DNA of 33,460 bases from Promethearchaeota archaeon (GTDB lineage Archaea > Asgardarchaeota > Lokiarchaeia > Sigyniarchaeales > SOKP01). Position 1 is the first letter of the stretch. Every line of letters starts with the position of its first letter. The stretch spans positions 1 to 33,460 of the forward strand of contig SHMW01000047.1 in the NCBI GenBank assembly GCA_008080735.1. The letters run 5' to 3'. A model generated the notes under the pieces. It was not told the DNA's origin and did no database searches. It saw nothing but the letters and a program-made list of their open reading frames with translations. This document shows positions 6,757 through 21,916 of this stretch, in pieces. The translations under genes and the position numbers were made by a program.

Positions 6757-8175
6757 TTAAATATAGGTATTTATCAGCTCGATCAAATTAGTTGATAAAT
6801 CGGGCAAATTTTTTTCTATTTTTTCTATTTCTATTTGATTTTCCAATAAGATTAAAAGATAGAGATGATATTTATCCACTTTGATTTTCTTAAATACTAA
6901 TTTTTTTGAATCGTCCGTGATGCCGCTCGTTATGATGAAATCTTCCTTTAATAGTTTGAATTCTTTAAAGGTTTTATATAAGGTTTGAAAGTGTGGAGCG
7001 GAAATCTCAAAAACTTTCCCTGACACGTCGTCTTTTGAATAGTTCGATAAAATAATACCACTCTCATTTAAAAGTAAGATAGCATCGGTTTTTGTCTTTT
7101 TCGCAAATCGTTTTAACTGCTGCTTAAATAATTTTCGATTTGGGCTGAGCTGGGAAAGACCGAATGAATAAGCTGAGATTAAGGACCAATGGGCGAAAAT
7201 TGAAGTCTTAAAAATTTTAACAAAAAACCTATCAGAAAGGCTTTTTATCTCTTTTTTCATATAATCCACATTTTTATCAATCTCGACTGAATCTTTTAAA
7301 TCGGGATCGTATTTATTTAAACAGATGACGATCGGAGGGAATTCATCAAGCTCCTTTAATGAGGTTATAATTCTGCTGAATAAGGCAAGTGAAGAGTCCA
7401 AACGCCCCGAATCCTGAATATCAACAAAGAAAAATAGGAGGTCGATATTATACAAATAAACTTTACTCTGCTCAAAATAGCGGTCTAAATATTTTTTTTG
7501 ACCACCTAAGTCCCAAATCATAATCTGGGATGACTCTTCTGAAAGGAGATGTTCTCGTGAACGATCTACTCCCTTAGTAGGGAGTGATTTGATGATCTCG
7601 GAATATTTTTTCTTCACACCCAATAGGAATGAGGTTTTACCAGCTTTATCAAGACCCGCAAATACCACTTTTATGGTGCGCTTTGAGGAGAAAGGATCTT
7701 TTAACTCATTTGTGAATTCAGTCAACTCATTCCTTAGAGACATAATTATTTCTTCATAACTCACTGGCTTCGGGGTTCTTTGAATCTCCGTGGCGGTCCG
7801 ATCTATAATCACCCGCAAATATTTCATATTTTCATAGAAAAATGTCCTATTATTCTCATTGACTAATACCGTAATGGTGGCAGCCTTCGCTTGTCCGCGC
7901 GCCTCGGGATCGGGAATCAAAAAGAAATAGGTAAGTCCATTAAGTTTCAGGTCCGGAAAAGGAATGACTCCAAAATAATTAATTCCATCTATTTCAAAAC
8001 TATCTTGATAAGTAGAGTCTCCCATCAGTAGGCTGATCGTCTTCATGGCAATGAGCATAGTTGACATTTGATCCATTGATTCGGGCCATATCACCACTGG
8101 TTCCGGACCACTCTCATCAAACACACTTAAAATAATGGATTTAATTATTTTATTATTCGAATTTTCCATTTTCAA
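6757..8175 (-). CDS. Multidomain small GTPase: uDENN/longin-like N-domain + Arf/Rag-like GTPase + roadblock-like C-domain
   Basis: N-terminal ILSVFDESGPEP. G1 GLDKAGKT, G2 PTKG, G3 WDLGGQ, G4 NKYD, G5 TSIF. C-terminal AILLLNESGIILS is a roadblock beta-hairpin. Confidence 0.85.
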   Translation of the reverse strand: MKMENSNNKIIKSIILSVFDESGPEPVVIWPESMDQMSTMLIAMKTISLLMGDSTYQDSFEIDGINYFGVIPFPDLKLNGLTYFFLIPDPEARGQAKAATITVLVNENNRTFFYENMKYLRVIIDRTATEIQRTPKPVSYEEIIMSLRNELTEFTNELKDPFSSKRTIKVVFAGLDKAGKTSFLLGVKKKYSEIIKSLPTKGVDRSREHLLSEESSQIMIWDLGGQKKYLDRYFEQSKVYLYNIDLLFFFVDIQDSGRLDSSLALFSRIITSLKELDEFPPIVICLNKYDPDLKDSVEIDKNVDYMKKEIKSLSDRFFVKIFKTSIFAHWSLISAYSFGLSQLSPNRKLFKQQLKRFAKKTKTDAILLLNESGIILSNYSKDDVSGKVFEISAPHFQTLYKTFKEFKLLKEDFIITSGITDDSKKLVFKKIKVDKYHLYLLILLENQIEIEKIEKNLPDLSTNLIELINTYI

Positions 8176-8371: not shown

Positions 8372-9157
8372 ATGTTCCAATTCAAATCCCGCGATGAAAT
8401 CGAACGGTTATTCCATGATATTTATGAGGTCTTGGTTCATATTGATCGTGAGTTGGACAAACCGTGGGTGAAGATCAAAAGTATCGAATTTTTTGATAAT
8501 TATAGCCCAGAGCAGATTGAGTCCATCATAATGAAATTTAATTTCCTAACTAAAGAGTCTTGGAACCATATTGAAATAGATAAAATTGAATTTATATTAG
8601 AATCATTGCAATTTTTACACTATGATATTGCCCAGTTGTCTAAAATATTAAACTATAGTGGTTTTGAAAAATTAATTAAGCAAATATTAGCCTTAAATGG
8701 ATATAGCGCACTGAATAATTTTCGCTTCTCAGATAAGTCAAGTTTCAAACAAAAAACTTCGCAAGGGCGTTATGAAGTGGATGTGGTGGGATTAAATAAT
8801 TCACATTTGCTTTTAATAGATGCAAAGCAATGGAATAAGCGAGACCCGTATTCAGCCATTAATAAAGCAGCTAATCTTCAATTAAGACGTGCTGAAGCGC
8901 TTAAGAGGAATCCTGACATCGTAGGAGATTTATTGAAACAATTAAGCGGGCGTTATTTCGAAATTAGAAAGTACCTCCCGCTAAAAGTCATCCCAATAAT
9001 GGTGACATTAGAAGAAAGTACTATCAAACTTAATAATAACCATATTCCAGTTGTTCCAATATATATATTAAATTCGTTCATACAAGAATTAAGTGATAAT
9101 CTTTATTATTTTAAGATTCTACGAATAGGTAAAATATCCCTCCAAACCCAACTATGA
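8372..9157 (+). CDS. PD-(D/E)XK restriction-endonuclease-like protein (Mrr/NERD-like)
   Basis: GFEKLIKQIL..NGY helix, EVDVVG, LLIDAKQW, VIPIMVT. Confidence 0.8.
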   Translation: MFQFKSRDEIERLFHDIYEVLVHIDRELDKPWVKIKSIEFFDNYSPEQIESIIMKFNFLTKESWNHIEIDKIEFILESLQFLHYDIAQLSKILNYSGFEKLIKQILALNGYSALNNFRFSDKSSFKQKTSQGRYEVDVVGLNNSHLLLIDAKQWNKRDPYSAINKAANLQLRRAEALKRNPDIVGDLLKQLSGRYFEIRKYLPLKVIPIMVTLEESTIKLNNNHIPVVPIYILNSFIQELSDNLYYFKILRIGKISLQTQL

Positions 9158-9499: not shown

Positions 9500-10204
9500 A
9501 TTAGTAAAAAAGACGCTCCAATAGACTATGAGCTCGAGATATTACAGTGTGTAAAAAATCATCCAAGTGGAGTCACGATCACGGATATAGCAGAGATATT
9601 AGGATTTTCAAGGAACACAGTCAGTAAGTATATTAGTATGCTTGAACTGAAAAATAAAATTTACAAAAAAAAGATTGGAGCATATTCGTTGTACATTAGT
9701 TCTGAGGAAACAAATCTCCCCAAAAGTTTAATCCTATCTTATTATAAAGCCTTGCTAAAGGGACTACGAGAAAACTTCCCAAACAAAGAAGAGATTTTCA
9801 AAAAAATTGGTCGAAATCAAGCAAATTTAATTAAATTCTCTTTTAGTCCGAATATATATAAACAGCTCAAAAGTTTGAAGGGAAATCCCATTTCGAGAGT
9901 ACATTTAGAACTTTTTAAGGAATTCTACGCTGCATATGATGTATTCCAACCCAACGTGGAAATCTCTATTCTTGATGTTGATCCAAAAGGGCAGAAAGCA
10001 GTTTATCGATTTAAAAATTCTATCTTTTTAGATGATGATGATTTGTATATATATCACATATATTTGATGACGGGAATAACTCAATCCATCTTAGAACGTG
10101 AACTGGAGGAAGATGTGATCTGTAAGGTTGAAAATTATCATATCAGCGATGATAGAAAAGATTCCTATTTTGATGTTTCCATTGTAATTGGAAATAATGA
10201 TTAA
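9500..10204 (+). CDS. Winged-helix transcriptional regulator with V4R-like ligand-binding domain; true start upstream of the tracked ATG 9638
   Basis: The in-frame upstream extension ISKKDAPIDYELEILQCVKNHPSGVTITDIAEILGFSRNTVSKYISM supplies the HTH. It is bounded by TGA at 9491 and contains no ATG/GTG/TTG. The C-terminal IGRNQA...YLMTGITQSIL...CKVE resembles V4R. Confidence 0.8.
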   Translation: MSKKDAPIDYELEILQCVKNHPSGVTITDIAEILGFSRNTVSKYISMLELKNKIYKKKIGAYSLYISSEETNLPKSLILSYYKALLKGLRENFPNKEEIFKKIGRNQANLIKFSFSPNIYKQLKSLKGNPISRVHLELFKEFYAAYDVFQPNVEISILDVDPKGQKAVYRFKNSIFLDDDDLYIYHIYLMTGITQSILERELEEDVICKVENYHISDDRKDSYFDVSIVIGNND

Positions 10205-10278
10205 CAGGGAATATTTGAAAAGAAAGAAAAAAAGATAATTAAATCTGAATCAATTTTCCATGGAAGTCAAATGGAACT

Positions 10279-11337
10279 CTAAACTTTAATGGTTTTCACT
10301 GAGGTCTCCTTGAGATAATTGGGGGCTTTCTTTAGTATTTCTTTTGCTTCAGCTATTACATTTTCCATTATCGAGCCCACGGATGAGACTTCATCGATAA
10401 TACCAATGCTCTGACCGAGTAAGACCGCCCCATTTTCAATATCTCCTTCATAGGTCATCTCGTAATGTTTTTGATCCTCCATGAGCATTTCTGGAGTCAT
10501 TTGCTGTTCTTGAGACATTTTTTCATCTTTATCGCTAACTAATCCGTGACTCTCAGAATATTTATTTTTCCAAAGGCGGATAGGACCGAAGACTCCCGTA
10601 ACTAACTCGGTATCGATTGCCTTCGCCTCGGGAACGATATCTTTGTAGTTTTGATGGAATTCGCTTTCTTTAGATGCGATAAATCGCGAACCCATAGCAA
10701 CCGCATCAGCTCCCATGACAAGAGCTCCAGCGAGAGATCTACCAGTAGCGAATCCTCCGCATGCAACAATGGGAATTTCAGGATATTTATCCGCAAATTG
10801 CTGAAGAAGGACTAAGGTACTCACCTTTTCGTAAGATTGATGTCCTCCTCCTTCTGTACCAGTACATACTAAGCCATCAACTCCCGCTTTTACACATTTA
10901 TCTGCTAACCATAATGCGGGTGCGACGTGAAAATTCTGAACATCTGTTTGTTCTTTGAGTTTTTGATAAGAGCGACTTGATTGAAGCATTTTTGGTGAAC
11001 CCGCGCTGGTAATTATATACTTACATTGTTCTCTGATTTTGGGATTATTTATGATAAATTTCGGGATAACTCTACAGAGATGTGGGGCATCAGGTTGCAT
11101 ACGCGAAGTACGGATATTAAAGCCAAAAGGTTTATCCGTGTGTTCGACAACATATTCCATATTCTTCTTGAGTTCTTTTTCACTACTTTTCCCTAGTAGG
11201 TTGGTATGGCTTAATACACCCAATCCTCCTGCTTCGGATACTGCCACCGTTAATTTTGTAGTATAAAACGGTCCCATTGGTGCACTAATGATGGGATACT
11301 TAATATCAAACATTTTAGTTATTTCTGTTTCAATCAT
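10279..11337 (-). CDS. Nitronate monooxygenase / FabK-like FMN-dependent oxidoreductase
   Basis: IKYPIISAPMG, AVSEAGGLGVL, KPFGFNI, GTEGGGH, PIVACGGF, GADAVAMGSRF, GQSIG. Confidence 0.92.
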   Translation of the reverse strand: MIETEITKMFDIKYPIISAPMGPFYTTKLTVAVSEAGGLGVLSHTNLLGKSSEKELKKNMEYVVEHTDKPFGFNIRTSRMQPDAPHLCRVIPKFIINNPKIREQCKYIITSAGSPKMLQSSRSYQKLKEQTDVQNFHVAPALWLADKCVKAGVDGLVCTGTEGGGHQSYEKVSTLVLLQQFADKYPEIPIVACGGFATGRSLAGALVMGADAVAMGSRFIASKESEFHQNYKDIVPEAKAIDTELVTGVFGPIRLWKNKYSESHGLVSDKDEKMSQEQQMTPEMLMEDQKHYEMTYEGDIENGAVLLGQSIGIIDEVSSVGSIMENVIAEAKEILKKAPNYLKETSVKTIKV

Positions 11338-11377
11338 CTTTATTCATTTTAATTTTGTTTTTAGGTATTTTGGTATT

Positions 11378-13372
11378 TTAAGTTATTATCATCTCTTGTT
11401 CGTAAAAATCAGTCAATCTATTTTCCATTATTAAAAAGTCGTTATCGCTATTATATAACGCATCGATTTCTGCGCCGAAATCTCGATAAATTGCTTTTCG
11501 TTTAAATTTATAAGTGGGAGTGACGTATTTCTCATTAGTCAAAGCTTCGGAACTAATTAAAAACTTTTTAGGTCGCATATGGTCTGAGACATCCTTAGTA
11601 AGCTCATCTACCTCCTCTTTAATTAGGGCTAATATTTTATGGTTTTTAATCAAATCTGCCCAAGTTTCATAAACGATTCCTTCTTTATCCGCATAATCCT
11701 TTAAAGGTTGTTGATACGGAACAAGGATCGCGGTAAGATATTTTCTGCTATCATCTCCGACTACAAGAAATTGGGCGATAATTCTTGATGTAGGCGTAAT
11801 CAAGTTTTCGATGGCTGCGGGACTTATCATCTTTCCAGTAGCAAGTTTAATGATCAATTTTTCTCTTCCCACTATGGATACATATCCATCCTCATCAATT
11901 TCTACGACATCTCCAGTATGAAGCCATCCATCCTCGTCGAGTGCTTCGGCGGTGTGTTGTGGTTTATTCCAATACCCTTTCATCACCATCGGTCCCCTAA
12001 TTAGCAATTCATTCGTGATGGGATCAACTTTTTGCTCGATGTTTTTATAGGGATTATCGGGAATTTCTATGGGCGGTCCCACTGAACCAATCTTTTTACA
12101 TTCTTCTATTTTTTTATCAAAATTAGGCCGAAAGTCCGAATTATCTTCTGTTCGCGTGAGATGTGTTACCGGGGAAGCTTCTGTAAGTCCATAACCCTCA
12201 ATTAAGGGAATATTAATCGTATTAAAAAAGTATATGAGATCCTTTGAAATTGCGGCCGAACCACTAATCATTAGTTCCAAATTCCCCCCCAATTTATCAA
12301 TAATTCTTTTTCCAACCACTTTTCCAAGTATATTATGTTTCAATCTGCATCCAAGTGTGTTTTTTATATCATCCCGTTTATTTTCAAAATAATGTTTCCC
12401 GTTTTCAATTACGCCTTCGACCAAATTTTTAATAAAATTGGGATAGGTTGAAAGCTCTTCCAAAACAATTTCGTATATTTTCTGATAAAGGTATGGAATT
12501 CCTGCCATAATTGTAGGTTCAAAAAGTTCAAACGACGTGCGAATTGTTTCTGGATTTAATTCACTTACGATATCTAAGGTGGCGCCGACCAAGAGCGGAC
12601 AATATTCCCCCACACATCTGCCAAAAGAGTGAGAAAAGGGTAAAACCGAAAGAAACCGATGTTCCCATGGCTTTATTCCTTTCTTCAGGGTCATAGCAAC
12701 AGATACAGAAGCAAGGGCGTCAGATAGGAAGTTTTTATGGGTAAGCATAACTCCTTTCGGAACACCCGTAGTCCCCGATGTATAGATGATGCTCGCTAAA
12801 TCCTCTTCTTGAATCTCGGATAATGAATAAGAGAATGCATTGGATGAATAATAATGTTCTACTCCTAATGAAAGAAGTTCTTTAAAAGTCATGAGATGAG
12901 CATCGTTCATTGTATACCGTTTGGGATCAAATATTATGATAACCTTCAAGTTGGGAACTTCGTGTATAATTGCCTTTACTTTTTCCAGATTTTCTCGAGT
13001 ATCAACAAAAATCGCTTTACATCCCGCATCATTTACGATATATTTAATCTCTTCTGGCTTGAGGGAAGGATACAACGCAACAGTAATGGCTCCCAAAGAT
13101 TGAATCCCGATATCCGCTAAAATCCACTCCGTTCTATTTTCCGAGCAGATTCCAATTCTGTCTCCTTTTTTAAATCCCATCTGTTTCAGAGAATAGAATA
13201 CCGCTTTTAAAGAGTCGACTAGCTCATCATAAGAGATCGATTCTACCGTACTGTCTGCTTTTCTAATCCATCGGATTGCAGGTTTTTTATAATATCTATT
13301 TTTCGATGCAACAATCATTTCGGGAAGATTATTAAAGCGAGTTTTTGGTAGGTATTTATTTTCTTTCGTCAT
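11378..13372 (-). CDS. fadD: Long-chain fatty acid--CoA ligase (AMP-forming)
   Basis: YTSGTTGVPKGV, LPFSHSF, EGYGLTE, GWLHTGD, GREK, TPTYKFKR. Confidence 0.92.
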   Translation of the reverse strand: MTKENKYLPKTRFNNLPEMIVASKNRYYKKPAIRWIRKADSTVESISYDELVDSLKAVFYSLKQMGFKKGDRIGICSENRTEWILADIGIQSLGAITVALYPSLKPEEIKYIVNDAGCKAIFVDTRENLEKVKAIIHEVPNLKVIIIFDPKRYTMNDAHLMTFKELLSLGVEHYYSSNAFSYSLSEIQEEDLASIIYTSGTTGVPKGVMLTHKNFLSDALASVSVAMTLKKGIKPWEHRFLSVLPFSHSFGRCVGEYCPLLVGATLDIVSELNPETIRTSFELFEPTIMAGIPYLYQKIYEIVLEELSTYPNFIKNLVEGVIENGKHYFENKRDDIKNTLGCRLKHNILGKVVGKRIIDKLGGNLELMISGSAAISKDLIYFFNTINIPLIEGYGLTEASPVTHLTRTEDNSDFRPNFDKKIEECKKIGSVGPPIEIPDNPYKNIEQKVDPITNELLIRGPMVMKGYWNKPQHTAEALDEDGWLHTGDVVEIDEDGYVSIVGREKLIIKLATGKMISPAAIENLITPTSRIIAQFLVVGDDSRKYLTAILVPYQQPLKDYADKEGIVYETWADLIKNHKILALIKEEVDELTKDVSDHMRPKKFLISSEALTNEKYVTPTYKFKRKAIYRDFGAEIDALYNSDNDFLIMENRLTDFYEQEMIIT

Positions 13373-13563
13373 TTTTTTTTGGAAGTTGAGTTATTCTTTT
13401 TAATTGACTGATACTTATCGATGATCTATAGTGATCAATCATAATATATTTATTATCTTTTCTGATTTATAAAGCTTCTGGTTTTCAATCAGATTAAAGA
13501 AATATAACTAATAATTAAAAGAAAATTTTAAAAAATAGAATTTAAAAAAAATGGTTGATAAAA

Positions 13564-16539
13564 TCATTCTTTTGGTTCATTTAGTTTCTGTGATTTAGGT
13601 TTCTGGAGATTATTTCCAAGTTTATTATTAAGATTTTGGATAGACTTTCCCATTTCTTTCTTTGATTTGGGTAGAATCAATTTTTTCTTCTTTCTTTTTA
13701 CCAGGTAATTTCGACTGAGTCCTGTCGATCCTAATCCTATAGCAACTCCTCCAATGGCCACCCCACCAATTTGAATCGTATTCGCAAGGGATATCGAATC
13801 CATTGGGAGGCCATACTGATATTCTGCCAGAGATGGCATTACGTTTTGCTGAAATTCGGGTATCCATTTTAGAATACACTCCATGCAATGATCATCTAAT
13901 CCATTCGCACTCTTAACTTCATCGTAAGCATTCATATCACCATCGATGGCAGCAAACCACCTTTCCAAACCCTCTTTTGAGACCAATGAATTGGGACTAG
14001 AAGTATTCCACAGAGCTAATGCAGACCCTAAACACATATTCGTAGGTTCGGGAATTCCCACTTCAAATCCATAGATCTCCTTATCGCCCAAAGGAAGCGG
14101 AAATCCATTAGGATACATCTCTTCACCCATTACTGATCCATTCGCCCACTGTTCTAATAGAATTTGGAAGCAGAAGTCCTCCATAGGTACTCCATATCCC
14201 ATTTCACTTTCTATAAGGATTGGTACTAGATAGTCGCTGAAGCACCCCTCACCCCAAAGCCATTGGAGTATTAAGTCAATTTGGGCTGATGTTAAATTAA
14301 ATTCGTTCATGATGAGTTGTTTTGTTTCATTATATTCATTTGCTTCGACCCATTTAGGGATTCCTTCAAACATATTTAATAGAGATAAATTATTCTCCGG
14401 ATTCCATAAAGCATCACACTGTTCAAAGGTGAGATTCAGCGGTACTGGTATTCCTGCTTCTAATCCTGTAGTACCCGCTACTATTCCGTCGACCATCGTA
14501 CTAAAATCTATGCCATTAGGATAAAGATCCATCCCTAAAGCAGTTCCGTTTGACCATTGTTCATAAAGCACTTTTAACGCAAGCTCGCTTACTGTTGAAC
14601 TATATCCATAAGGTTCAGGAGCTTGGGTCAGCAATGGAAATAATCCATAACTAAATCCATTCGGTGCCCAGAGCCACTCTAATATTAAATCAATTGTATC
14701 ATTATTAAGAAATGGAAATTCTCCAATTAAATCCTCCTTGGGAGCGTCTGATGAATTTGCTTCATACCATAACAATATTCCATCCATATTTGTGAGGGAA
14801 TAATTTGATTCTTGATTCCATAGTTCCTCACATTGGTCATATGTCAAATTAAGTGGTATAACCACACCTGGTTCTAATCCTGTAGTATCTGGATCCATTC
14901 CATCAATGATTGTGCTGAAATCTATTCCTTGAGGATATAAATCCATACCAAGAACAGTTCCGTTTGCCCATTGTTCAAAAAGTATTTGTTTACAGAATGA
15001 ATCCATAGTGACATCATACCAGCTGGTAAGAAGTGTGGGCAGAGTTGTCGTATAAAAGGCACCTTGGTTCCATCCTCCGCCATTTCCCCATAGCCAGTCG
15101 AGTATCAAATCCATATCTGTGGAATCGAACCCACTACTACCATATAGACTTTGCTCATAGTCATATCCATCAAATTCGGTGAAAAAGTTCAGTAATTCAT
15201 TATATATGCTCTGGTTAAAGGAATCATGAGCAAAATATGCATTATACCATTTTTGAATTCCGTTTTCAATATTCAAGAAAGAATATTCACTTGATTCATC
15301 CCATAATCGAAATGTGGCTTCCATAGGTATTCCCGAATCTGTATCTGGACCACCTGGTTCTAATCCTCTTGTATTGGTAGGTATACTATCTTCATAGACC
15401 GAAAAATCTACTCCGTCATCATAGCTTAGACATTTTGCCCATTGTTCGTAAAAACTGTAGAGTTTGAGTTCATCATAAGAAATTTCACCTTCATTCCAAT
15501 CCCGTGGGCGATATTGTGGCATATCAGTCCATAAGGCTGTACCTTCTGTATTAAAATCGTTTATAAACAGATCGATTACATCAGAAACGAAATAATCGTT
15601 ATAATAATTATAAAGAATACGCAATTTATGATTACCATCCACATAATAATCTCCATCACTCGTCTCGAGACCATATCCATCGGCCATTTCATTTAATAGT
15701 GTATCGCTAGCATTTTCAATTAAACTCATTAACTCAAGGATACCAAATCCTCGATCTTGGTTTGTATCTACGTCTGCACCTTCGGGCCAATTAGGATTTT
15801 CTGTTCTAACTAGGGTGTCCTCAAAAACACCAGGAAGACGATTACCCCACCATCCCTCTACGTCTACACCATATTTTAAACGATTAACTCCATAATCCTC
15901 TGTAGGATCTGGTGCGCTCAAACGGTTTATCCCAAAATTCAAATCCTCGCCATACCATTCAGATATTCCATATATTTCGGGATAATCTTTTTTTGTTATT
16001 TCGCTATGAAATTGAACATACAAAATAATAACCCATATTCCAACCTCATCCCAATATATATCTTCAGCCACGTCATCTCCAATACCCGGGAGTCCAGTTT
16101 GCCCCAACATTTGCTCTATTTCATATATAAGATTCATCCATATAGTCGCATTTACGAGAGGTCCAGAAGCTTCGAGTGCTTGTTCTCGAATCAAATCCAG
16201 AGCAATCGCAGGTCCCATCTGAAGAATCATCTCCTCAATCGCATCTGGAGCGATATCCTCTATAGTTGAAAGCGCAATTGCAGGTCCCATCTGATGAATA
16301 AGATCCTCAATCGCGAGAGTTCCAACATTTTTAATTTGACTTAGCGCTTCACCACTTCCATATTGTTTTATCATTGGTTCAACCAACGGGACACCCTCTT
16401 CTTTGATACCTAAGAGTCCCTCATCAACGGAGCTGTAAGTCAAATCGGTTATGAGATTATCTAAGAGGATCCCTCCTGGTAAAGCAACTCCACCGAGAAC
16501 CAAACACATAATTGACGCTACTGCTACTTTCTTCGACAT
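13564..16539 (-). CDS. Large acidic surface protein with N- and C-terminal TM helices and internal repeats
   Basis: Likely start ATG 16539 (MSKKVAVASIMCLVLGGVAL). C-terminal TM IQIGGVAIGGVAIGLGSTGL followed by KRKKKK. Four EQW(A/S) repeats. Confidence 0.85.
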   Translation of the reverse strand: MSKKVAVASIMCLVLGGVALPGGILLDNLITDLTYSSVDEGLLGIKEEGVPLVEPMIKQYGSGEALSQIKNVGTLAIEDLIHQMGPAIALSTIEDIAPDAIEEMILQMGPAIALDLIREQALEASGPLVNATIWMNLIYEIEQMLGQTGLPGIGDDVAEDIYWDEVGIWVIILYVQFHSEITKKDYPEIYGISEWYGEDLNFGINRLSAPDPTEDYGVNRLKYGVDVEGWWGNRLPGVFEDTLVRTENPNWPEGADVDTNQDRGFGILELMSLIENASDTLLNEMADGYGLETSDGDYYVDGNHKLRILYNYYNDYFVSDVIDLFINDFNTEGTALWTDMPQYRPRDWNEGEISYDELKLYSFYEQWAKCLSYDDGVDFSVYEDSIPTNTRGLEPGGPDTDSGIPMEATFRLWDESSEYSFLNIENGIQKWYNAYFAHDSFNQSIYNELLNFFTEFDGYDYEQSLYGSSGFDSTDMDLILDWLWGNGGGWNQGAFYTTTLPTLLTSWYDVTMDSFCKQILFEQWANGTVLGMDLYPQGIDFSTIIDGMDPDTTGLEPGVVIPLNLTYDQCEELWNQESNYSLTNMDGILLWYEANSSDAPKEDLIGEFPFLNNDTIDLILEWLWAPNGFSYGLFPLLTQAPEPYGYSSTVSELALKVLYEQWSNGTALGMDLYPNGIDFSTMVDGIVAGTTGLEAGIPVPLNLTFEQCDALWNPENNLSLLNMFEGIPKWVEANEYNETKQLIMNEFNLTSAQIDLILQWLWGEGCFSDYLVPILIESEMGYGVPMEDFCFQILLEQWANGSVMGEEMYPNGFPLPLGDKEIYGFEVGIPEPTNMCLGSALALWNTSSPNSLVSKEGLERWFAAIDGDMNAYDEVKSANGLDDHCMECILKWIPEFQQNVMPSLAEYQYGLPMDSISLANTIQIGGVAIGGVAIGLGSTGLSRNYLVKRKKKKLILPKSKKEMGKSIQNLNNKLGNNLQKPKSQKLNEPKE
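13850..15480 (-). repeat. Four ~136-157-aa intragenic repeats (EQWANG...YP.G.DFS...GLE.G...LW...SL...GI..W...DLIL.WLW)
   Basis: Conserved Trp codons at 15439, 14968, 14554 and 14146 (spacings 471, 414 and 408 nt). Confidence 0.9.
16200..16390 (-). repeat. 72-nt/24-aa tandem repeat (AIE..I.QMGPAIAL) x2 plus a degenerate third copy
   Basis: GCAAT(C/T)GCAGGTCCCATCTGA occurs at 16202 and 16274. Confidence 0.85.
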
Positions 16540-16759
16540 TTTATATATATCTTTCCTTTTTTTTATTAAAATATTGCGATCATCATTACTGATCACAAGC
16601 ATCTATAACTATCTATTTGGTTTTTCATATATATAAATCTTATCTTATCTGGAGTATATCTTGAAATAATTATTAGATATAATAGAAAAAGTAAACAAAC
16701 AAACTTATAAAAATGTAGCTTTAAAACCAGTTTGTAAGAAAGATTATATCTAAAAACAG

Positions 16760-17812
16760 CTATTCAATTCCTAAGTACTCTTTAACTTGTTTTCTAACCA
16801 TATTTGTGGCGATATTAATTACACCGCTTTTGACCTTTGGGTTGGAGAAAATTATCAAGAGCATTTTACTAAGATTTGGGTTTTGTGAATCAATTGGCGC
16901 AAGGTCGAGCACACCTTCAGTCCCTCTCACAGAGATCGACTGTAGAGAGCCAGCGCTCAACCCTTCAATTATATCCGAACCCATCATCGAAAGATTCTGT
17001 CCTATGGTTGCGAATAACGTATCGGAAATCCGATCTGAAATCGCAGATGCTAAGATAGTTCCGTCTCTGTTAATAAGAGCCGAGGCCTCCACTTGAATAT
17101 CGATATTTAATAATTGTTTTAATATTTCATTTAAACTTTCAGGTTTAAGCTCTTTCTCCTCCAATTGAATTTCTTTAGAAGCTGGTTTAGTGTCTTGAGC
17201 TTTATGTTTTGATTGTGGAGCCTGAAGTTTTTCCGAAAGGAATCCAAGAACATCTCTCATATCTTTTTCGAGCTGTTTTTGTCTTCCTTGGATTTGGTTT
17301 GAGGGAGGCCTCTGAGTTTCTGGTTGCTGGGATGGTGCTTGTTGAGTCCGATTTCCTGCCAATGGGTGGGGTTGGGGGCGTGATGATCGTTCGATGGGAT
17401 CTGATGCAAACATTGAGCCATCAAATGGGCTAGGATCAATTTCTTGGAGATATTCCCGTCGAGCTTTGTGCGAAGCCTCGGACTCTGCTTTTTCTTTAGT
17501 TTGCGTTTCATAGGATTGCTCATCCATTGGTATTTCTTGAAGTTCTATGTTGTTTTTATTGTCTGAAGAAGAGTTGTCGGAATTGAAAAATCTTACTTCC
17601 GCAGGCGCATGATTACTTGTTTGAGGGGATCTGGGCTGGGGAGTACGTTTTTTTTCTTTTTTCTTTGTATCTGCATCTTTTTCCTTTTCTTTATTTCCAA
17701 AAGGCACCCGTAATCTGGGGGGTTTGGTAGACACAGGAAGCAAAGCTCCGCATTTCCGACATACCTTCGTATTTTCATCGTTCGTGGAACCGCAATTAGG
17801 GCAAATAATCAT
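16760..17812 (-). CDS. Zinc-ribbon + long disordered linker + roadblock/LC7 (MglB/LAMTOR-like) protein
   Basis: CPNC...CRKC at the N-terminus; P/Q/S-rich linker; C-terminal LNEILKQL...VEASALINRDGTILAS...G.LQSISVRGTEG...LLIIFS...GVI is a roadblock signature. Confidence 0.88.
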   Translation of the reverse strand: MIICPNCGSTNDENTKVCRKCGALLPVSTKPPRLRVPFGNKEKEKDADTKKKEKKRTPQPRSPQTSNHAPAEVRFFNSDNSSSDNKNNIELQEIPMDEQSYETQTKEKAESEASHKARREYLQEIDPSPFDGSMFASDPIERSSRPQPHPLAGNRTQQAPSQQPETQRPPSNQIQGRQKQLEKDMRDVLGFLSEKLQAPQSKHKAQDTKPASKEIQLEEKELKPESLNEILKQLLNIDIQVEASALINRDGTILASAISDRISDTLFATIGQNLSMMGSDIIEGLSAGSLQSISVRGTEGVLDLAPIDSQNPNLSKMLLIIFSNPKVKSGVINIATNMVRKQVKEYLGIE

Positions 17813-17985
17813 TTTCTTTTTTTCTTAGAGAACTTTTTTTAATAACAAATAATGATAATGCAGAGATAATGCTTTCTATGCTATTTAAAAAACTCACCAA
17901 CTATCTCAAGAAATATATAAAACTCCAGATATAAATTCATTACTATTGATTTAAAAAAAACTTTATAAAGAAATTGTCGGTGAGT

Positions 17986-18933
17986 TTATTTATATAAAAT
18001 TTGTTTCAAAATATTTGTAAAGCTTTCGATATCTTCCTTCTGATAATTTGGTTCATCTTTAACCAATAGTAGATAATAAGGTGGTACATCATCTTTCAGA
18101 GAAATTTGTGTAAAGATGAAATATTTTTTATAGCGCTGAACCAAGACGCTTGTATCCGATTTATTGAATAGTCCACCTCTCTCCTCAGCTGCCCTGAAAC
18201 TATCATTAAGTGTTAGGAAATAGGGCGTGGATGAATTTAGAATCTCTTTTATCTCATCATTTTTGAAATAACTTCCAATTTGAAGTGAATTATCATCAAT
18301 CACCACCACTCCATCAGATTTAACTTTATTGGCAAATTGCGCTATGGTTTTCTCAATTAATTCGGATTTACTATATAAGGTGAGAAGGATTTCTGACATT
18401 GCTTTGATAATGGAGGGGAGATCGTATATCGAAGTATTATAAAAATAGAGTCGCTTATAATCTGCTTCACTTTTTATATCCTCCTTCAGGTTAATTGTTA
18501 AATTAGAATATTCATTATATGCGCTCCTTTCTAAGACCGGGTCAAATTTATGGAAAAAGATATATATGGGTGGTTCGGCTTCCAGCTCTTCGAATTGTGC
18601 GATTACATCTTTTAAATAATCAATTGCTTCTGGGATTCTCTTTTTATCTTGGATATCGATAACATAGATAGCTATTTCAGTATTTTCAAAATATTTACCC
18701 GGATTCTTTAAATACGCGATTCGATATGATTTCTGGCCTCCTAAATCCCATTCTGAAACAGCTTTTCCTAAAAACTCGAAAACCCTTCTTTGTGCTCCTC
18801 GTGTTGGAGACAAAATCGCTATCTTTGAGAATTCTCTCTTAAGCGCTAAAATAATCGATGTTTTCCCTGCTCCATCAAGTCCGGTAAATAAAATCTTCGA
18901 TGCCTCTGGATCCTCCTCTTTTAAATATTCCAT
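17986..18933 (-). CDS. Rag/Gtr-like small GTPase with C-terminal roadblock domain (paralog B)
   Basis: GLDGAGKT, SPTRG, WDLGGQ, Rag-type G4 HKFD and G5 TSIYD...KAMS. C-terminal GVVVIDDNSLQIGS. SD AAGGTGA upstream. Confidence 0.88.
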   Translation of the reverse strand: MEYLKEEDPEASKILFTGLDGAGKTSIILALKREFSKIAILSPTRGAQRRVFEFLGKAVSEWDLGGQKSYRIAYLKNPGKYFENTEIAIYVIDIQDKKRIPEAIDYLKDVIAQFEELEAEPPIYIFFHKFDPVLERSAYNEYSNLTINLKEDIKSEADYKRLYFYNTSIYDLPSIIKAMSEILLTLYSKSELIEKTIAQFANKVKSDGVVVIDDNSLQIGSYFKNDEIKEILNSSTPYFLTLNDSFRAAEERGGLFNKSDTSVLVQRYKKYFIFTQISLKDDVPPYYLLLVKDEPNYQKEDIESFTNILKQILYK

Positions 18934-19145
18934 TAGATGAATTTCACCTTGAGTTCTTAAACCTAAAAATATTCTATATTAAAAATAAAAGAAGAACTCA
19001 AATTTATTAATTTTGTTCTGATTTTTAGAAAAATTCCTAATGGAAATTTTTTGATTATTTTTCTGGATACATTTTCTAAAAAAGAAAAGACGGTTCTAAA
19101 GAAATCCATGAATTAATTTTAAAATTTTCAAAATTGCAGTTACGA

Positions 19146-20096
19146 TTAATAAAGAATCTCTCCAAAGAGCGTTGATATCGATTGTATATTATTTTTATCA
19201 TATTCGGGTGTATCTTTAATTAGTAAGAGATAATATGGAGGTGCTTCTTTTTTCAATGACAGTTTTGAAAATATAAAATAATTTTCGTCTTTTTGGATTA
19301 CTGTTGTTTTATTAGTACTCTCAATAGTTTCAAGCGAATCTGTGTCCACCCGTTCAAAACTATCATTTAAACTCAAGAAGTATGGAATCGAATCTTCGGC
19401 AAGGTCTTTTATCTCATCATCTACAAAATAAGAACTAATGAGGAGCGAGTTATCATCAACTATAATTACTCCTTTTGAGTTGGTTTTATTGACAAATTCT
19501 TGAAGTGTGGTATCAATTAGAACTGTCTTCGGAACCAAGGACAAGAATACTGAGGACATCGCTTTAACTATGGAAGAAATGTCAAAAATAGAAGTTTTAT
19601 GAAAATCTAAGTGGTCATAAGATACTTTCTCTTTAATGTTTTCTTTTAATCTCTCAACTACGTTTTTATATTGATCATTATGATATTGTACAATAGCAGG
19701 ATCATATTTGTGAAAGAAAATATGCACAAAAGGACTTATTTCTAATTCTTCAAACTTTTTTACTACTTTTTTTAAATAATCTATGGATTCATCAAATCGA
19801 TCTTCTTCTTGAATATCAATAACATAAATCGCAACGCTAGTATTAGCAAAATAATCATTTGGACGCTTTAAGTATGATATACGATACTTTCGCTGTCCAC
19901 CCAAATCCCATTCGCTAATTTGCTTTCCCAAAAAATCGAACATCCGTTTTTGGCTTCCTTGTGTAGGAGAAACATCTCCAATTTGAGCAAATTCTCGTTT
20001 CAAGGTCAAAATGATGGAGGATTTGCCAGCAAAATCTAAGCCCGTGAATAAAACTTTAGAAACTTCTGAACTCTCATCTTGCAAGTATTTTAACAT
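19146..20096 (-). CDS. Rag/Gtr-like small GTPase with C-terminal roadblock domain (paralog A)
   Basis: GLDFAGKS, SPTQG, WDLGGQ, HKYD, TSIFD...KAMS, GVIIVDDNSLLISS. Collinear with 17986-18933. SD GGGGTGA upstream. Confidence 0.88.
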   Translation of the reverse strand: MLKYLQDESSEVSKVLFTGLDFAGKSSIILTLKREFAQIGDVSPTQGSQKRMFDFLGKQISEWDLGGQRKYRISYLKRPNDYFANTSVAIYVIDIQEEDRFDESIDYLKKVVKKFEELEISPFVHIFFHKYDPAIVQYHNDQYKNVVERLKENIKEKVSYDHLDFHKTSIFDISSIVKAMSSVFLSLVPKTVLIDTTLQEFVNKTNSKGVIIVDDNSLLISSYFVDDEIKDLAEDSIPYFLSLNDSFERVDTDSLETIESTNKTTVIQKDENYFIFSKLSLKKEAPPYYLLLIKDTPEYDKNNIQSISTLFGEILY

Positions 20097-20243: not shown

Positions 20244-21593
20244 TTAATAATTTTGCTCGAGAAAGGCTTTAAAATCATCATAATTTTCTATTTCGGTTGG
20301 ATTAGGAATCTCCTCACGGTTTTGAATAATTTCTAAAGAACTTGGAGTCTTTGGAATAATGTCAATCAGTTCGATAATCTCATCTGGGAACTTGGCAGGG
20401 TCGGCAGTCTCAAAAGTTATCGATTTTATTTTATTATGTGCTGGATTATCCTTTCGATAATGCTGAAGCGCAGCCCATCCGACCGCTCCATGGGGTTCTA
20501 GGATTTCTTCATAACGAATATATGCATTTTTAATAGTTTCCTTAGTTTCCTCGTCTGATATGGAATATGAAACAATATCTTTGCGTATTTCTTCCATATT
20601 TGGCCTTTTGTGAATATTTCCCTTCTCATCAATGTGTCCTCCGTATAAATCAATTAAGCGAGCAAGATTCGACGGGTGCCCAACGTTCATAGCATTCGAG
20701 ATGCAATTTTTTGATGGCTCTACCTTCTCGTAGGTTCCAGTTTGTAGGAAATTCGGGAACTCATCATTTTCATTAACCGCCGCTATAAATTTTTTAACGG
20801 GAAGTCCCATTTTATAAGCTATCAATCCCCCCATCAAGTTTCCAAAATTACCCGAAGGTACCGAAAAGACTACTTCTTCTCCTTTCTCTTGGACAACTCG
20901 CGAATAACTCCAGAAATAATAGAGAGTTTGAGGGAGTAATCGCCCGAAATTAATAGAATTCGCAGATGAGAGCTTGAGATGAGATAAATCTGGATCTGCA
21001 AATGCTTTCTTTACAAAACGTTGACAATCATCAAATTTGCCTTGTATCCCAATAGCTGCAACATTTTTTCCCAATGTAGTCATTTGCTTTCTCTGTAAGT
21101 CGCTAATCTCATGCTTTGGATACAAAACGACAATTTGGATTCTGTCCATTTCATAAAATGCTTGGGCTACAGCGCCACCGGTATCTCCTGAAGTCGCAGT
21201 TAAGATGATAATATTTTCATCGTCTTGTTCCAAGAAATATTGCATTACACGTGCTAAAGTTCTTGCTCCGAAATCTTTGAAGCTACAAGTAGGTCCATTA
21301 TCTAGATAGCAAATATGATCATAATCTGTTATTTTATTTATAGGAACTTCAAAATTAAGTGCGTCTGTTACAATCTCCTTGAAGGTTTCTTTAGGAATAC
21401 TCTCTCTCACGATATTTGAAAGAACGATAAAACCAAGTTCATTTAGAGGTAATGACTGAAATGAATATATTTCCTCTTGAGATAATGTTTCGATTTCATC
21501 GAGCATATACAATCCTTTATCTGGAGCCTGACCCCTAAGTATTGCTTCTTTAAATCCTACATCAGGAGTATTATGATTAGTTGAATGAAACAT
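20244..21593 (-). CDS. thrC: Threonine synthase (long, E. coli/fungal-type)
   Basis: G.APDKGLY, GPTCSFKDFG (PLP Lys), ATSGDTGGA, FDDCQ, SANSINFGRL, VPSGNFGN, SNAMNVG.PSN, EPHGAV, TA.PAKF. Confidence 0.95.
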   Translation of the reverse strand: MFHSTNHNTPDVGFKEAILRGQAPDKGLYMLDEIETLSQEEIYSFQSLPLNELGFIVLSNIVRESIPKETFKEIVTDALNFEVPINKITDYDHICYLDNGPTCSFKDFGARTLARVMQYFLEQDDENIIILTATSGDTGGAVAQAFYEMDRIQIVVLYPKHEISDLQRKQMTTLGKNVAAIGIQGKFDDCQRFVKKAFADPDLSHLKLSSANSINFGRLLPQTLYYFWSYSRVVQEKGEEVVFSVPSGNFGNLMGGLIAYKMGLPVKKFIAAVNENDEFPNFLQTGTYEKVEPSKNCISNAMNVGHPSNLARLIDLYGGHIDEKGNIHKRPNMEEIRKDIVSYSISDEETKETIKNAYIRYEEILEPHGAVGWAALQHYRKDNPAHNKIKSITFETADPAKFPDEIIELIDIIPKTPSSLEIIQNREEIPNPTEIENYDDFKAFLEQNY

Positions 21594-21670: not shown

Positions 21671-21916
21671 CTAATATTTCCCAAAAAAATCAGTAATATC
21701 AAAATAAATGATTCTTTCTCGTCCGTTAATGTCTAAAACAAATTTATCGTACATTTTATCGTTATCCTTGATAAGTGCTCGCTTTAACATTTTATATTTT
21801 CCAAAGCGTTTTTTCATTTCATCATATTGACGACTGACGCCTTCGATATTATTGCAACCCTGGATAACAATCGCACTTTCTTGGCAAGAGCCGTTTCCGC
21901 CTTGTATTAAAACCAT
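21671..21916 (-). CDS. Small hypothetical protein (GGNGS...AIVI...YD...YFDIT.FFGK type)
   Basis: 81-aa ORF in a co-directional run with protein-like composition. Confidence 0.7.
   Translation of the reverse strand: MVLIQGGNGSCQESAIVIQGCNNIEGVSRQYDEMKKRFGKYKMLKRALIKDNDKMYDKFVLDINGRERIIYFDITDFFGKY

What the first reader, a model, noticed from the sequence alone, without database searches (positions are those of the whole stretch)
16760..20096. Tandem Rag-like GTPase pair followed by a roadblock protein: minimal Rag-Ragulator-like cassette
Seen: two collinear ~315-aa paralogs with Rag-type G4 (HKFD/HKYD), G5 (TSI[Y/F]D...KAMS) and C-terminal roadblock domains. Their P-loops differ (GLDGAGKT vs GLDFAGKS). 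A Zn-ribbon-linker-roadblock gene follows on the same strand. Established: eukaryotic RagA/B and RagC/D heterodimerise through roadblock C-terminal domains and dock on roadblock LAMTOR subunits. Inference: an archaeal Rag heterodimer with possibly asymmetric nucleotide states plus its scaffold or GAP. It may be an independent duplication rather than a direct RagA/RagC orthologue pair, since the G1/G3 motifs are Arf-like.
Basis: partly seen in the sequence, partly recalled or inferred. Interest (0 to 1): 0.8.

Follow-up and report, generated by a model that had tools for sequence, protein, structure and literature searches.

The report
Duplicated Asgard Rag-like GTPase plus roadblock partner
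An Asgard (Loki-type) archaeon carries two neighbouring copies of an already crystallised kind of Rag-like GTPase next to a zinc-ribbon/roadblock gene. One copy is the highly conserved original and the other is a fast-evolving, genus-restricted duplicate, so this is a local variation on a known module, not an ancestral RagA/RagC pair.

Summary
Three minus-strand genes encode two 52%-identical Gtr1/RagA-family GTPases with C-terminal roadblock domains (A 19146-20096, B 17986-18933) and a Zn-ribbon / disordered linker / roadblock protein (Z 16760-17812).

- B is the ortholog of a single-copy gene found in 130 of 151 sampled genomes of the class. Its closest solved relative is LokiRagO (PDB 8YL2), a homotetramer.
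- A occurs only in the window's own genus among the genomes searched. Its protein changes about 15 times faster than B's (dN/dS 0.19 against 0.02), yet it keeps every GTPase motif.
- The P-loop difference (F against G) sits at a position that varies freely among orthologs. It is no evidence for asymmetric nucleotide states.
- Tandem copies arose separately in at least two other genera.

The conserved unit is B plus Z. In all 17 syntenic loci of the family read that reach far enough downstream, a folliculin-like longin-Rag-roadblock gene lies further along. This scan had already found that module on other Loki genomes, and whole-region synteny weakens the adjacency argument.

No A/B heterodimer and no Z-GTPase contact could be tested, because no multimer tool was available. 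Z has conserved 'LxEIP' linker motifs and does not appear in the literature I could search. Interest is moderate.

The parts
19146..20096 (-). Gene A: fast-evolving, genus-restricted paralog of the LokiRagO-type Rag-like GTPase (316 aa). G domain is about aa 11-187 (nt 19536-20066); C-terminal roadblock domain is aa 188-316 (nt 19149-19535).
   Evidence: Pfam Gtr1_RagA 1.5e-28. PDB 8YL2 5e-69. AF2 model plus Foldseek full-length matches to LokiRagO, RagA/C and Gtr1/2. A-type clade of 7 protein clusters, with a relocated sister copy in G003. dN/dS 0.19. All G motifs intact.
17986..18933 (-). Gene B: the conserved syntenic ortholog of the LokiRagO-type Rag-like GTPase (315 aa). G domain is about aa 10-186 (nt 18376-18906); roadblock domain is aa 187-315 (nt 17989-18375).
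   Evidence: Pfam Gtr1_RagA 1.7e-26. PDB 8YL2 8.5e-82 over aa 11-312. 56-82% identical to the single syntenic copy in 17 relatives. Found in 130 of 151 genomes of the class at E<=1e-60. dN/dS 0.020.
16760..17812 (-). Gene Z: Zn-ribbon / disordered linker / roadblock protein (350 aa), one copy per genome.
   Evidence: Pfam Zn_Ribbon_1 1e-6 and weak Robl_LC7. AF2 model. Foldseek to Asgard roadblocks, LAMTOR2/3 and MglB. 409 homologous protein clusters with the roadblock domain 64-76% identical beyond the closest relatives. Downstream of the B-type GTPase in all 19 syntenic loci read.
17723..17812 (-). Z residues 1-30: four-Cys zinc ribbon (CxxC, 10 residues, CxxC), followed by a Lys/Arg-rich stretch.
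   Evidence: pLDDT about 86. C18, R19, C21 and G22 are at least 90% conserved.
17528..17548 (-). Z residues 89-95: conserved linear motif 'LELQEIP' inside the disordered linker.
   Evidence: L91 and I94 are invariant and P95 is at least 90% conserved in 50 homologs.
17417..17452 (-). Z residues 121-132: second conserved linear motif 'LQEIxPxPFxGS'.
   Evidence: L122, E124 and I125 are invariant and P129 is at least 90% conserved. There is a local pLDDT peak of 76 in an otherwise disordered linker.
17225..17302 (-). Z residues 171-196: conserved helix ('KQLEKDM..VL.FLSKK') before the roadblock domain.
   Evidence: pLDDT about 93. L181, D184, M185, V188 and S193 are invariant.
16763..17143 (-). 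Z residues 224-350: roadblock/LC7 domain with full alpha-beta-beta-alpha-beta-beta-beta-alpha topology.
   Evidence: Helix alpha2 and strands beta1/beta2 are nearly invariant.
6757..8175 (-). Context gene of the same conserved block: longin (weak folliculin-type match) / Rag-like GTPase / probable roadblock protein, 472 aa.
   Evidence: Pfam Gtr1_RagA 1.4e-22 and Folliculin 6.6e-4 at aa 81-141. An ortholog lies 1-4 kb beyond Z in all 14 family-f1 loci that reach far enough, and directly after Z in G024.
20244..21593 (-). Threonine synthase. It is the upstream neighbour of the GTPase in 13 of the 18 family-f1 loci read (12 of 16 plus one of the two g5 loci), but not in family f2.
   Evidence: Pfam PALP and Thr_synth_N; synteny.

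Best explanation
Shown:
- B is this organism's copy of the LokiRagO-type Rag-like GTPase: a G domain plus a C-terminal roadblock domain, under very strong purifying selection.
- A is a tandem duplicate that arose inside this Lokiarchaeial family and was found only in the window's genus.
- A keeps an intact GTPase and is under purifying selection, but its protein changes about 15 times faster than B's.
- 15 of its 20 clade-fixed differences lie in the G domain: around switch I, after the catalytic Gln, and flanking G4 and G5.
- Z is a single-copy zinc-ribbon / disordered-linker / roadblock protein. Its gene follows the B-type GTPase throughout the family.

Inferred mechanism:
- The GTPases self-associate through their roadblock domains, as Rag/Gtr and LokiRagO do.
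- Z dimerises through its roadblock domain and binds the GTPase as a scaffold or regulator. It could sit on the roadblock platform (as LAMTOR2/3 does) or on the G domain (as MglB does).
- Z's zinc ribbon, basic stretch and two conserved 'LxEIP' motifs recruit or tether other factors.
- A is a specialised second switch subunit with altered regulator or effector specificity. It may still form mixed oligomers with B (my estimate about 0.4), but it is neither an ancestral nor an obligate RagC-like partner.
For: Architecture and family.

B is the conserved ortholog and A the derived copy:
- B is 56-82% identical to the syntenic single copy of relatives, A only 45-60%.
- In the trees A forms a clade with 100% local support, joined by a relocated G003 copy and placed among B-type copies of the window's genus and neighbouring genera.
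- Monophyly of all syntenic copies is rejected, p-AU 0.021.
- No A-type copy was found in 120+ other genomes of the family.

Selection, G006 against a sister metagenome locus: B 97.8% identity, dN/dS 0.020; A 72.5%, 0.19; Z 0.118; ThrC 0.094.

Motifs are intact, and fixed differences cluster at the switch and G4/G5 flanks.

B-Z linkage:
- 19 of 19 syntenic loci from 14 genera, 15 of them with nothing in between.
- Consecutive locus tags in 4 NCBI MAGs.
- The arrangement persists in G024 of another family, where the upstream ThrC neighbourhood is different.

Z's roadblock domain is 64-76% identical across most of 409 clusters, at least as conserved as the GTPase.
Against: - No physical interaction was tested, because no multimer prediction was available.
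- The whole ~30-kb region, housekeeping genes included, is syntenic across the family.
- Intergenic gaps of 147-212 bp with T-runs, plus a Shine-Dalgarno-like GGTGA upstream of both A and B, suggest separate transcription.
- Other genes are inserted between the GTPase and Z in G006/L071, G012 and G018.
- The closed 4.4-Mb genome G026 and its genus have the GTPase but no Z-type gene.
- No GTPase-Z fusion was found (weak evidence).
- The genome holds at least 16 strong Rag-like GTPases, so Z could serve another one.
- The young age of A is not resolved by sequence alone: p-AU 0.39 and 0.20.
Confidence: 0.55

Rival explanations
1. A and B form an obligate Rag-like heterodimer through their roadblock domains, the two subunits hold opposite nucleotide states, and the Z dimer serves as a Ragulator-like scaffold or GAP. 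This would be an independently evolved Rag-Ragulator analogue.
For: - The tandem is retained in at least 7 clusters (90% identity), with A under purifying selection.
- Only 5 of the 20 fixed A/B differences lie in the roadblock domain, so the dimer surface need not have been remodelled.
- Tran et al. 2024 (PMC10933270, main text and Supplementary Fig. 8) report an AF2-predicted heterodimer for a tandem Rag-like pair in MK-D1, with one homodimer not predicted.
- Rates are asymmetric between the two subunits.
Against: - The P-loop difference lies at a hypervariable position, and both copies keep every catalytic motif.
- Most relatives, including two of the same genus (G001, G005), have B alone.
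- The A-like copy of G003 is unlinked.
- The nearest solved homolog is a homotetramer.
- The genes have separate intergenic regions.
- B's extreme conservation is the same with or without an A partner.
Confidence: 0.2
2. A is an independent, neofunctionalised switch. It forms its own homo-oligomers, has its own regulators and effectors, and has no functional contact with B or Z. The tandem position is only the birthplace of the duplicate.
For: - Duplication of this gene is recurrent, and most older duplicates have moved elsewhere: paralog clades P1 and P2 are unlinked in genera g2, g5, g7 and g11.
- The A-like copy is relocated in G003.
- Fixed changes concentrate on the switch / effector face.
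- A evolves fast.
Against: - The tandem position has been kept in most A-bearing lineages seen so far: four A/B cluster pairs share a contig length, besides the window.
- Paralogs of homo-oligomers usually keep cross-interaction for some time (general knowledge, not tested here).
- The roadblock domain has few fixed differences.
Confidence: 0.3
3. The B-Z adjacency is synteny inertia. Z works with another of the many small GTPases, for example the longin-Rag-roadblock protein further along the block, or with a non-GTPase target.
For: - The whole region is collinear across the family, including threonine synthase, a CLC channel and other housekeeping genes.
- Insertions between B and Z are tolerated.
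- G026-type genomes have the GTPase without Z.
- Z lies between B and the longin-GTPase in G024.
Against: - The adjacency survives in G024 (family f2), where the upstream neighbourhood has changed.
- B and Z's roadblock domain are both unusually conserved.
- Roadblock proteins encoded beside small GTPases are a recurrent functional pairing, as in MglA/MglB (established knowledge).
Confidence: 0.3

Closest known systems
LokiRagO (PDB 8YL2, 'Homo Tetrameric RagA-like small GTPase from Asgard Lokiarchaeota', released 2025-09-10) and LokiRagM (8ZLA / 9M28, monomeric)
   Same: Same subfamily and architecture. B matches 8YL2 at E 8.5e-82 over its full length, A at 5e-69. Both share GLDxAGK[ST], WDLGGQ, HKFD and the C-terminal roadblock domain. 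The A model's best fold matches are 8YL2 chains.
   Different: Sequence identity is moderate (Foldseek reports 38% for the A model against 8YL2). Here there are two diverged copies in tandem plus a Z-type neighbour. Oligomeric state is unknown. I found no paper for these PDB entries in the searchable library.
Eukaryotic Rag/Gtr GTPases (RagA/B-RagC/D, Gtr1-Gtr2) with Ragulator/EGO
   Same: G domain plus C-terminal roadblock domain. HKxD G4 motif. Pfam Gtr1_RagA is the best family match. Full-length structural alignment of 311-320 columns. Z's roadblock domain resembles LAMTOR2/3.
   Different: A and B are not RagA/RagC orthologs. Both hit RagA/Gtr1 better than RagC, and the duplication lies inside the Lokiarchaeial LokiRagO-type subfamily. 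There is no LAMTOR1-like lipidated anchor and no second roadblock pair. Z instead has a zinc ribbon and a motif-bearing disordered linker. The P-loop is Arf-like.
Tandem Rag-like GTPase pair of Ca. Prometheoarchaeum syntrophicum MK-D1 (Tran et al. 2024, Commun Biol, PMC10933270, Supplementary Fig. 8)
   Same: Two Rag-like GTPase-roadblock genes side by side in a Lokiarchaeon, for which an AF2 heterodimer through the roadblock domains was predicted.
   Different: I could not identify that pair in G026, the closed 4.4-Mb genome of the same order. It has no two adjacent Gtr1_RagA hits at E<=1e-8 and only one LokiRagO-type gene. It is probably a different paralog pair. Tran et al. state that GTPase genes are generally not in operons with roadblock genes, whereas here a roadblock gene is a conserved neighbour.
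MglA-MglB (bacterial and archaeal small GTPase with a roadblock GAP)
   Same: A small GTPase gene beside a gene for a full-length roadblock protein. Z's roadblock domain matches MglB structures (E about 1e-6).
   Different: The GTPases here are Rag-type with their own roadblock domain, not MglA-type. Z carries a zinc ribbon and a ~190-residue linker that MglB lacks. GAP activity is untested.

Membership tests
Rag/Gtr GTPase family (Pfam PF04670) | G domain scores above the family's curated cut-off and better than against Arf, Ras or Roc | tested here: met
   A 100.2 bits and B 93.5 bits (cut-off 22), against Arf 68 and 71 bits.
Rag/Gtr GTPase family (Pfam PF04670) | HKxD in place of NKxD at G4, and TSI at G5 | tested here: met
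   HKYD / HKFD and TSIFD / TSIYD; H129, K130, D132 and T168 are invariant in 50 homologs.
Rag/Gtr GTPase family (Pfam PF04670) | C-terminal roadblock domain following the G domain | tested here: met
   The AF2 model of A has alpha-beta-beta-alpha-beta-beta-beta-alpha at residues 190-315. Full-length Foldseek alignments to RagA, RagC, Gtr1 and Gtr2.
Rag/Gtr GTPase family (Pfam PF04670) | Obligate heterodimer of an A/B-type with a C/D-type subunit descended from an ancient duplication | tested here: not met
   Orthology part tested: A and B are a duplicate pair within the Lokiarchaeial LokiRagO-type subfamily, and A-type copies were found only in the window's genus. Both resemble RagA/Gtr1 more than RagC. 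Physical heterodimerisation could not be tested.
Rag/Gtr GTPase family (Pfam PF04670) | Docking of the roadblock-domain dimer on Ragulator/EGO and regulation by longin GAPs (GATOR1, FLCN) | not testable with these tools
   Context only: Z lies beside B, and a folliculin-like longin fused to a second Rag-like GTPase lies in the same conserved block.
LokiRagO-type Asgard Rag-like GTPases (PDB 8YL2) | Full-length sequence and fold similarity to 8YL2 | tested here: met
   B 8.5e-82 (aa 11-312) and A 5.2e-69 (aa 8-297). Foldseek E 2e-26.
LokiRagO-type Asgard Rag-like GTPases (PDB 8YL2) | Homotetrameric assembly | not testable with these tools
   Only single-chain prediction was available.
Ragulator / LAMTOR roadblock scaffold | Roadblock fold | tested here: met
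   Z residues 227-347 match LAMTOR2/3 chains (5Y3A, 1VEU, 6EHR), E about 1e-6 to 1e-7, target TM-score 0.70-0.78.
Ragulator / LAMTOR roadblock scaffold | Two heterodimeric roadblock pairs held by a lipidated LAMTOR1 anchor | tested here: not met
   There is one Z-type gene per genome. The other roadblock hits are generic proteins of about 115-140 aa elsewhere. Z has a zinc ribbon and linker instead. No LAMTOR1-like gene is in the block.
MglA/MglB GTPase-GAP pair | Roadblock protein encoded next to its GTPase | tested here: met
   Z follows the B-type GTPase in 19 of 19 syntenic loci.
MglA/MglB GTPase-GAP pair | MglA-type GTPase partner and GAP activity of the roadblock dimer | tested here: not met
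   The GTPases are Rag-type (PF04670) with their own roadblock domain. GAP activity is not testable here.

The most novel reading that the evidence does not exclude
A homo-oligomeric Rag-like GTPase has been duplicated in tandem, at the same position between thrC and Z, independently in at least three Lokiarchaeial genera. In this genus the new copy has become an obligate, faster-evolving partner of the conserved copy, and the A/B heterodimer docks on a Z dimer. That would be a natural replay of the homodimer-to-heterodimer step that produced RagA/B-RagC/D on Ragulator. It would come with matched single-copy and duplicated lineages for comparison.
Probability: 0.15. Interest if true: 0.7.

Novelty: new variant of a known kind. 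Interest (0 to 1): 0.4.

Why it matters
Rag GTPases are the eukaryotic amino-acid switch for TORC1, and they always work as heterodimers of two ancient paralogs on a roadblock scaffold. Asgard Rag-like GTPases are known and one has been crystallised as a homotetramer, but their partners are unknown. Published work says their genes are generally not linked to roadblock genes.

This locus offers three things:
- a named candidate partner, Z, a zinc-ribbon roadblock protein with conserved linear motifs;
- a matched set of lineages with one or two GTPase copies, which allows a test of how a homomeric Rag-like switch becomes heteromeric;
- a clear example of asymmetric evolution after duplication, with dN/dS 0.02 against 0.19.

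None of this is a new kind of system, and the core B+Z module had already been found by this scan on other genomes.

Tried and rejected
1. The P-loop F/G difference as a sign of asymmetric nucleotide handling. Rejected: the position is hypervariable among orthologs.

2. 'Pairs' of 315-aa and 324-aa proteins on the same contigs in the homolog list (P0098/P0104, P0065/P0066) as evidence for widespread tandems. Rejected: they are the same gene with different start calls, identical in the alignment.

3. A as the local ortholog of the upstream tandem copy of genus g5 (same thrC-up-dn-Z layout), meaning one ancient tandem. Rejected by AU test, p 0.0047.

4. Exact timing of the A duplication. Not resolved: AU tests do not reject A branching outside the g1-neighbour B group (p 0.39) or before the family radiation (p 0.20). 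The 'young' reading rests on the ML topology and on A's restriction to one genus.

5. GTPase-Z fusion proteins (Rosetta-stone evidence). None found among longer proteins (weak evidence).

A profile scan gave one locus, L071, which was used with G006 for dN/dS. Comparisons with the window itself are saturated at synonymous sites for most genes.

7. A publication for PDB 8YL2 or 'LokiRagO'. None in the searchable library.

8. Locating the MK-D1 'operon pair' of Tran et al. in G026. No adjacent Gtr1_RagA hits at E<=1e-8.

9. The sigma-70 promoter scan was not used, because archaeal promoters are not covered. Intergenic regions were read by eye only.


Full report
**What is there**

Three co-directional ORFs lie on the minus strand at exactly the stated coordinates:
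- A, 19146-20096, 316 aa
- B, 17986-18933, 315 aa
- Z, 16760-17812, 350 aa

A and B are collinear paralogs, 52% identical, E 7e-125. Both match Pfam Gtr1_RagA (100 and 94 bits) better than Arf (68 and 71 bits).

An AlphaFold2 model of A (pLDDT 80, pTM 0.78) shows a G domain followed by an alpha-beta-beta-alpha-beta-beta-beta-alpha domain. Foldseek aligns the model over its full length to these structures:
- PDB 8YL2, 'Homo Tetrameric RagA-like small GTPase from Asgard Lokiarchaeota (LokiRagO)', E 2e-26
- LokiRagM (8ZLA / 9M28)
- RagA, RagC, Gtr1 and Gtr2 (311-320 columns)

Arf and Arl proteins match only the G domain. By sequence, B hits 8YL2 at 8.5e-82 and A at 5e-69.

Z has these parts:
- a four-Cys zinc ribbon (Pfam 1e-6);
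- a ~190-residue linker, mostly predicted disordered;
- a C-terminal roadblock domain that matches Asgard roadblocks, LAMTOR2/3 and MglB, with target TM-score mostly 0.6-0.8.

**Which copy is the original**

I fetched 20 loci from relatives and later 20 more. In the 16 syntenic loci of the window's family (f1, 13 genera) among the first 20, the neighbourhood is collinear. The order is: 500-aa Rag-like GTPase, AIR-synthase-like gene, SLOG/LOG-like gene, CLC channel, 81-aa ORF, threonine synthase, ONE ~315-aa Rag-like GTPase, Z, a convergent 261-aa gene, often a variable ~600-aa gene, a 470-aa longin-Rag-roadblock gene, then a transglutaminase-like gene and others.

The single syntenic GTPase is 56-82% identical to B but only 45-60% to A. 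B-type genes occur in 130 of 151 sampled genomes of the class (118 of 126 in family f1) at E<=1e-60.

A-type proteins form a small clade with 100% local support: the window's A plus P0002-P0007, that is 7 clusters at 90% identity. A relocated copy in G003 is its sister. This clade sits among the B-type copies of the window's genus and neighbouring genera.

AU tests gave the following:
- They reject a tree in which all syntenic copies form one clade excluding the paralogs, p 0.021.
- They reject A being the ortholog of the upstream tandem copy of genus g5, p 0.0047.
- They do not fix the exact node, p 0.39 and 0.20.

The 'young duplicate' reading therefore rests on the ML topology and on A's restriction to one genus. 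Two members of that genus (G001, G005) lack an A-type copy.

**Recurrent duplication**

Tandem pairs at the same position (thrC, up, down, Z) also occur in two g5 genomes (G072, G093) and one g13 genome (G018). Their extra copies fall in two other paralog clades. The remaining members of those clades are unlinked in g2, g5, g7, g11 and G003.

Duplication of this gene is thus recurrent. Tandem is the birth state, and relocation is common. Apparent 315/324-aa 'pairs' in the homolog list are one gene with two start calls.

**Selection**

The usable close pair was G006 against a sister metagenome locus, L071:

| Gene | Protein identity | dN/dS |
|---|---|---|
| B | 97.8% | 0.020 |
| A | 72.5% | 0.19 |
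| Z | 89.6% | 0.118 |
| Threonine synthase | 91.1% | 0.094 |

A's dN is about 15 times B's. A is a functional gene under relaxed or shifting constraint, and B is among the most constrained genes of the region.

All G1-G5 motifs and the catalytic Gln are intact in both clades. The x in GLDxAGK[ST] is G, S, T, N, M, D, Y or F among plain orthologs, so the F/G difference says nothing about nucleotide state.

Of 20 positions fixed differently in the A and B clades, 15 are in the G domain:
- before and in switch I: S37A, K38Q, A48S, R50K
- after the catalytic Gln: S70K, N78R, K81D
- in the helix after switch II: I101F, D110K
- flanking G4: P123F, Y125H
- flanking G5: Y164D, Y166H, Y171F
- at the end of the G domain: L184F

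Only 5 are in the roadblock domain. This pattern fits changed regulator or effector specificity better than a redesigned dimer interface.

**Z**

The Z family has 409 clusters in the protein database. Its roadblock domain is 64-76% identical to the window's across most of them, at least as conserved as the GTPase. Source names include 'predicted regulator of Ras-like GTPase activity (Roadblock/LC7/MglB family)' and 'zinc-ribbon domain-containing protein'.

The alignment shows five conserved modules:
- the zinc ribbon (residues 1-30), followed by a basic stretch;
- motif 'LELQEIP' (about residues 89-95);
- motif 'LQEIxPxPFxGS' (residues 121-132, with a local pLDDT peak);
- a conserved helix (residues 171-196, pLDDT 93);
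- the roadblock domain (residues 224-350), with a nearly invariant helix alpha2.

Z is single-copy in each genome. It lies downstream of the B-type GTPase in all 19 syntenic loci read. In 15 of them nothing lies in between, and insertions occur in G006/L071, G012 and G018. In four NCBI MAGs the two genes have consecutive locus tags.

In G024, a genome of another family, the order GTPase, Z, longin-GTPase is contiguous although the upstream neighbourhood differs. G026 (a closed 4.4-Mb genome of the same order) and its genus have the GTPase but no Z-type gene. No GTPase-Z fusion was found.

**Caveats on coupling**

- The whole region is collinear across the family, so adjacency is weak evidence by itself.
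- The three genes are separated by 147-212 bp containing T-runs, and both A and B have a GGTGA Shine-Dalgarno-like box upstream. Separate transcription is likely; this is inference.
- The genome has at least 16 strong Rag-like GTPases.

**What is known already**

- Asgard Rag/Gtr-like GTPases with fused roadblock or longin domains are described in Tran et al. 2024 (PMC10933270) and in the references cited in PMC12290439.
- Tran et al. note one tandem Rag-like pair in MK-D1 with an AF2-predicted heterodimer. They also state that GTPase genes are generally not in operons with roadblock genes.
- LokiRagO and LokiRagM structures are in the PDB. I found no paper for them.
- This scan had already reported the GTPase+Z pair and the GTPase / Z / folliculin-longin-GTPase trio on other Loki genomes (e1-2073011 and e1-5415268). 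I re-derived both here.
- What this window adds is the genus-restricted, fast-evolving tandem duplicate and the picture of recurrent duplication at this locus.

**Verdict**

The genes are real and correctly described. They are Rag-like in architecture and belong to the LokiRagO-type subfamily. They are not a RagA/RagC-type ancestral pair, and the proposed nucleotide asymmetry has no sequence support.

The most likely reading (confidence about 0.55) has three parts:
- a conserved B+Z switch/partner module;
- A as a specialised extra subunit;
- oligomerisation through the roadblock domains, with Z acting as a scaffold or regulator.

All contacts are inferred.

Noticed in passing
window 6757-8175 (-): A 472-aa protein with a weak folliculin-type longin match (Pfam Folliculin 6.6e-4, aa 81-141), a Gtr1_RagA G domain (1.4e-22) and a C-terminal tail. 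An ortholog lies 1-4 kb beyond Z in all 14 family-f1 loci that reach far enough, and directly after Z in G024. It is a possible alternative partner of Z or B.
   Followed up: partly
window 27553-29061 (+): A second long (502 aa) Rag-like GTPase (Gtr1_RagA 6.4e-22). Its ortholog, with the adjacent AIR-synthase-like and SLOG/LOG-like genes, lies near the LokiRagO-type gene even in the G026 and G019 genomes of another family.
   Followed up: partly
window 9638-16602: Relative to 17 related loci, where Z is followed directly or within one gene by the convergent 261-aa gene (window 8372-9157), this window has a ~7-kb insertion. It carries a 188-aa ORF, a nitronate-monooxygenase-like gene, an AMP-binding acyl-CoA-ligase-like gene and a 1012-aa protein with no Pfam match. 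G006 has a weakly similar 834-aa gene in the same place.
   Followed up: partly
G000 contig C97, locus L003 1192-1998 (-) and 2036-3379 (-): A second tandem of Rag/Arf-like GTPase genes (268 aa and 447 aa) only 37 bp apart, which is a tighter, operon-like arrangement than A/B. It may correspond to the MK-D1 'operon pair' of Tran et al..
   Followed up: partly
L031 6631-7443 (-) (G006) and L071: An orphan 270-aa gene with no Pfam match is inserted between B and Z in G006 and its sister locus. It is 92.8% identical between them, with dN/dS 0.13.
   Followed up: partly
G015:C154:6845-7801 (locus L042): The B-type ortholog of this genome is interrupted by two in-frame TAA codons. It is either a pseudogene or an assembly error.
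   Followed up: no
window 32889-33434 (-): A Ras/Rab-family small GTPase (Pfam Ras 4.9e-44) at the window's edge. The window thus holds five small GTPase genes in 33 kb.
   Followed up: no
window 21671-21916 (-): An 81-aa ORF with no Pfam match between the CLC channel and threonine synthase. It is conserved (47-59% identity) at or near that position in six relatives, so it is probably a real small gene.
   Followed up: no
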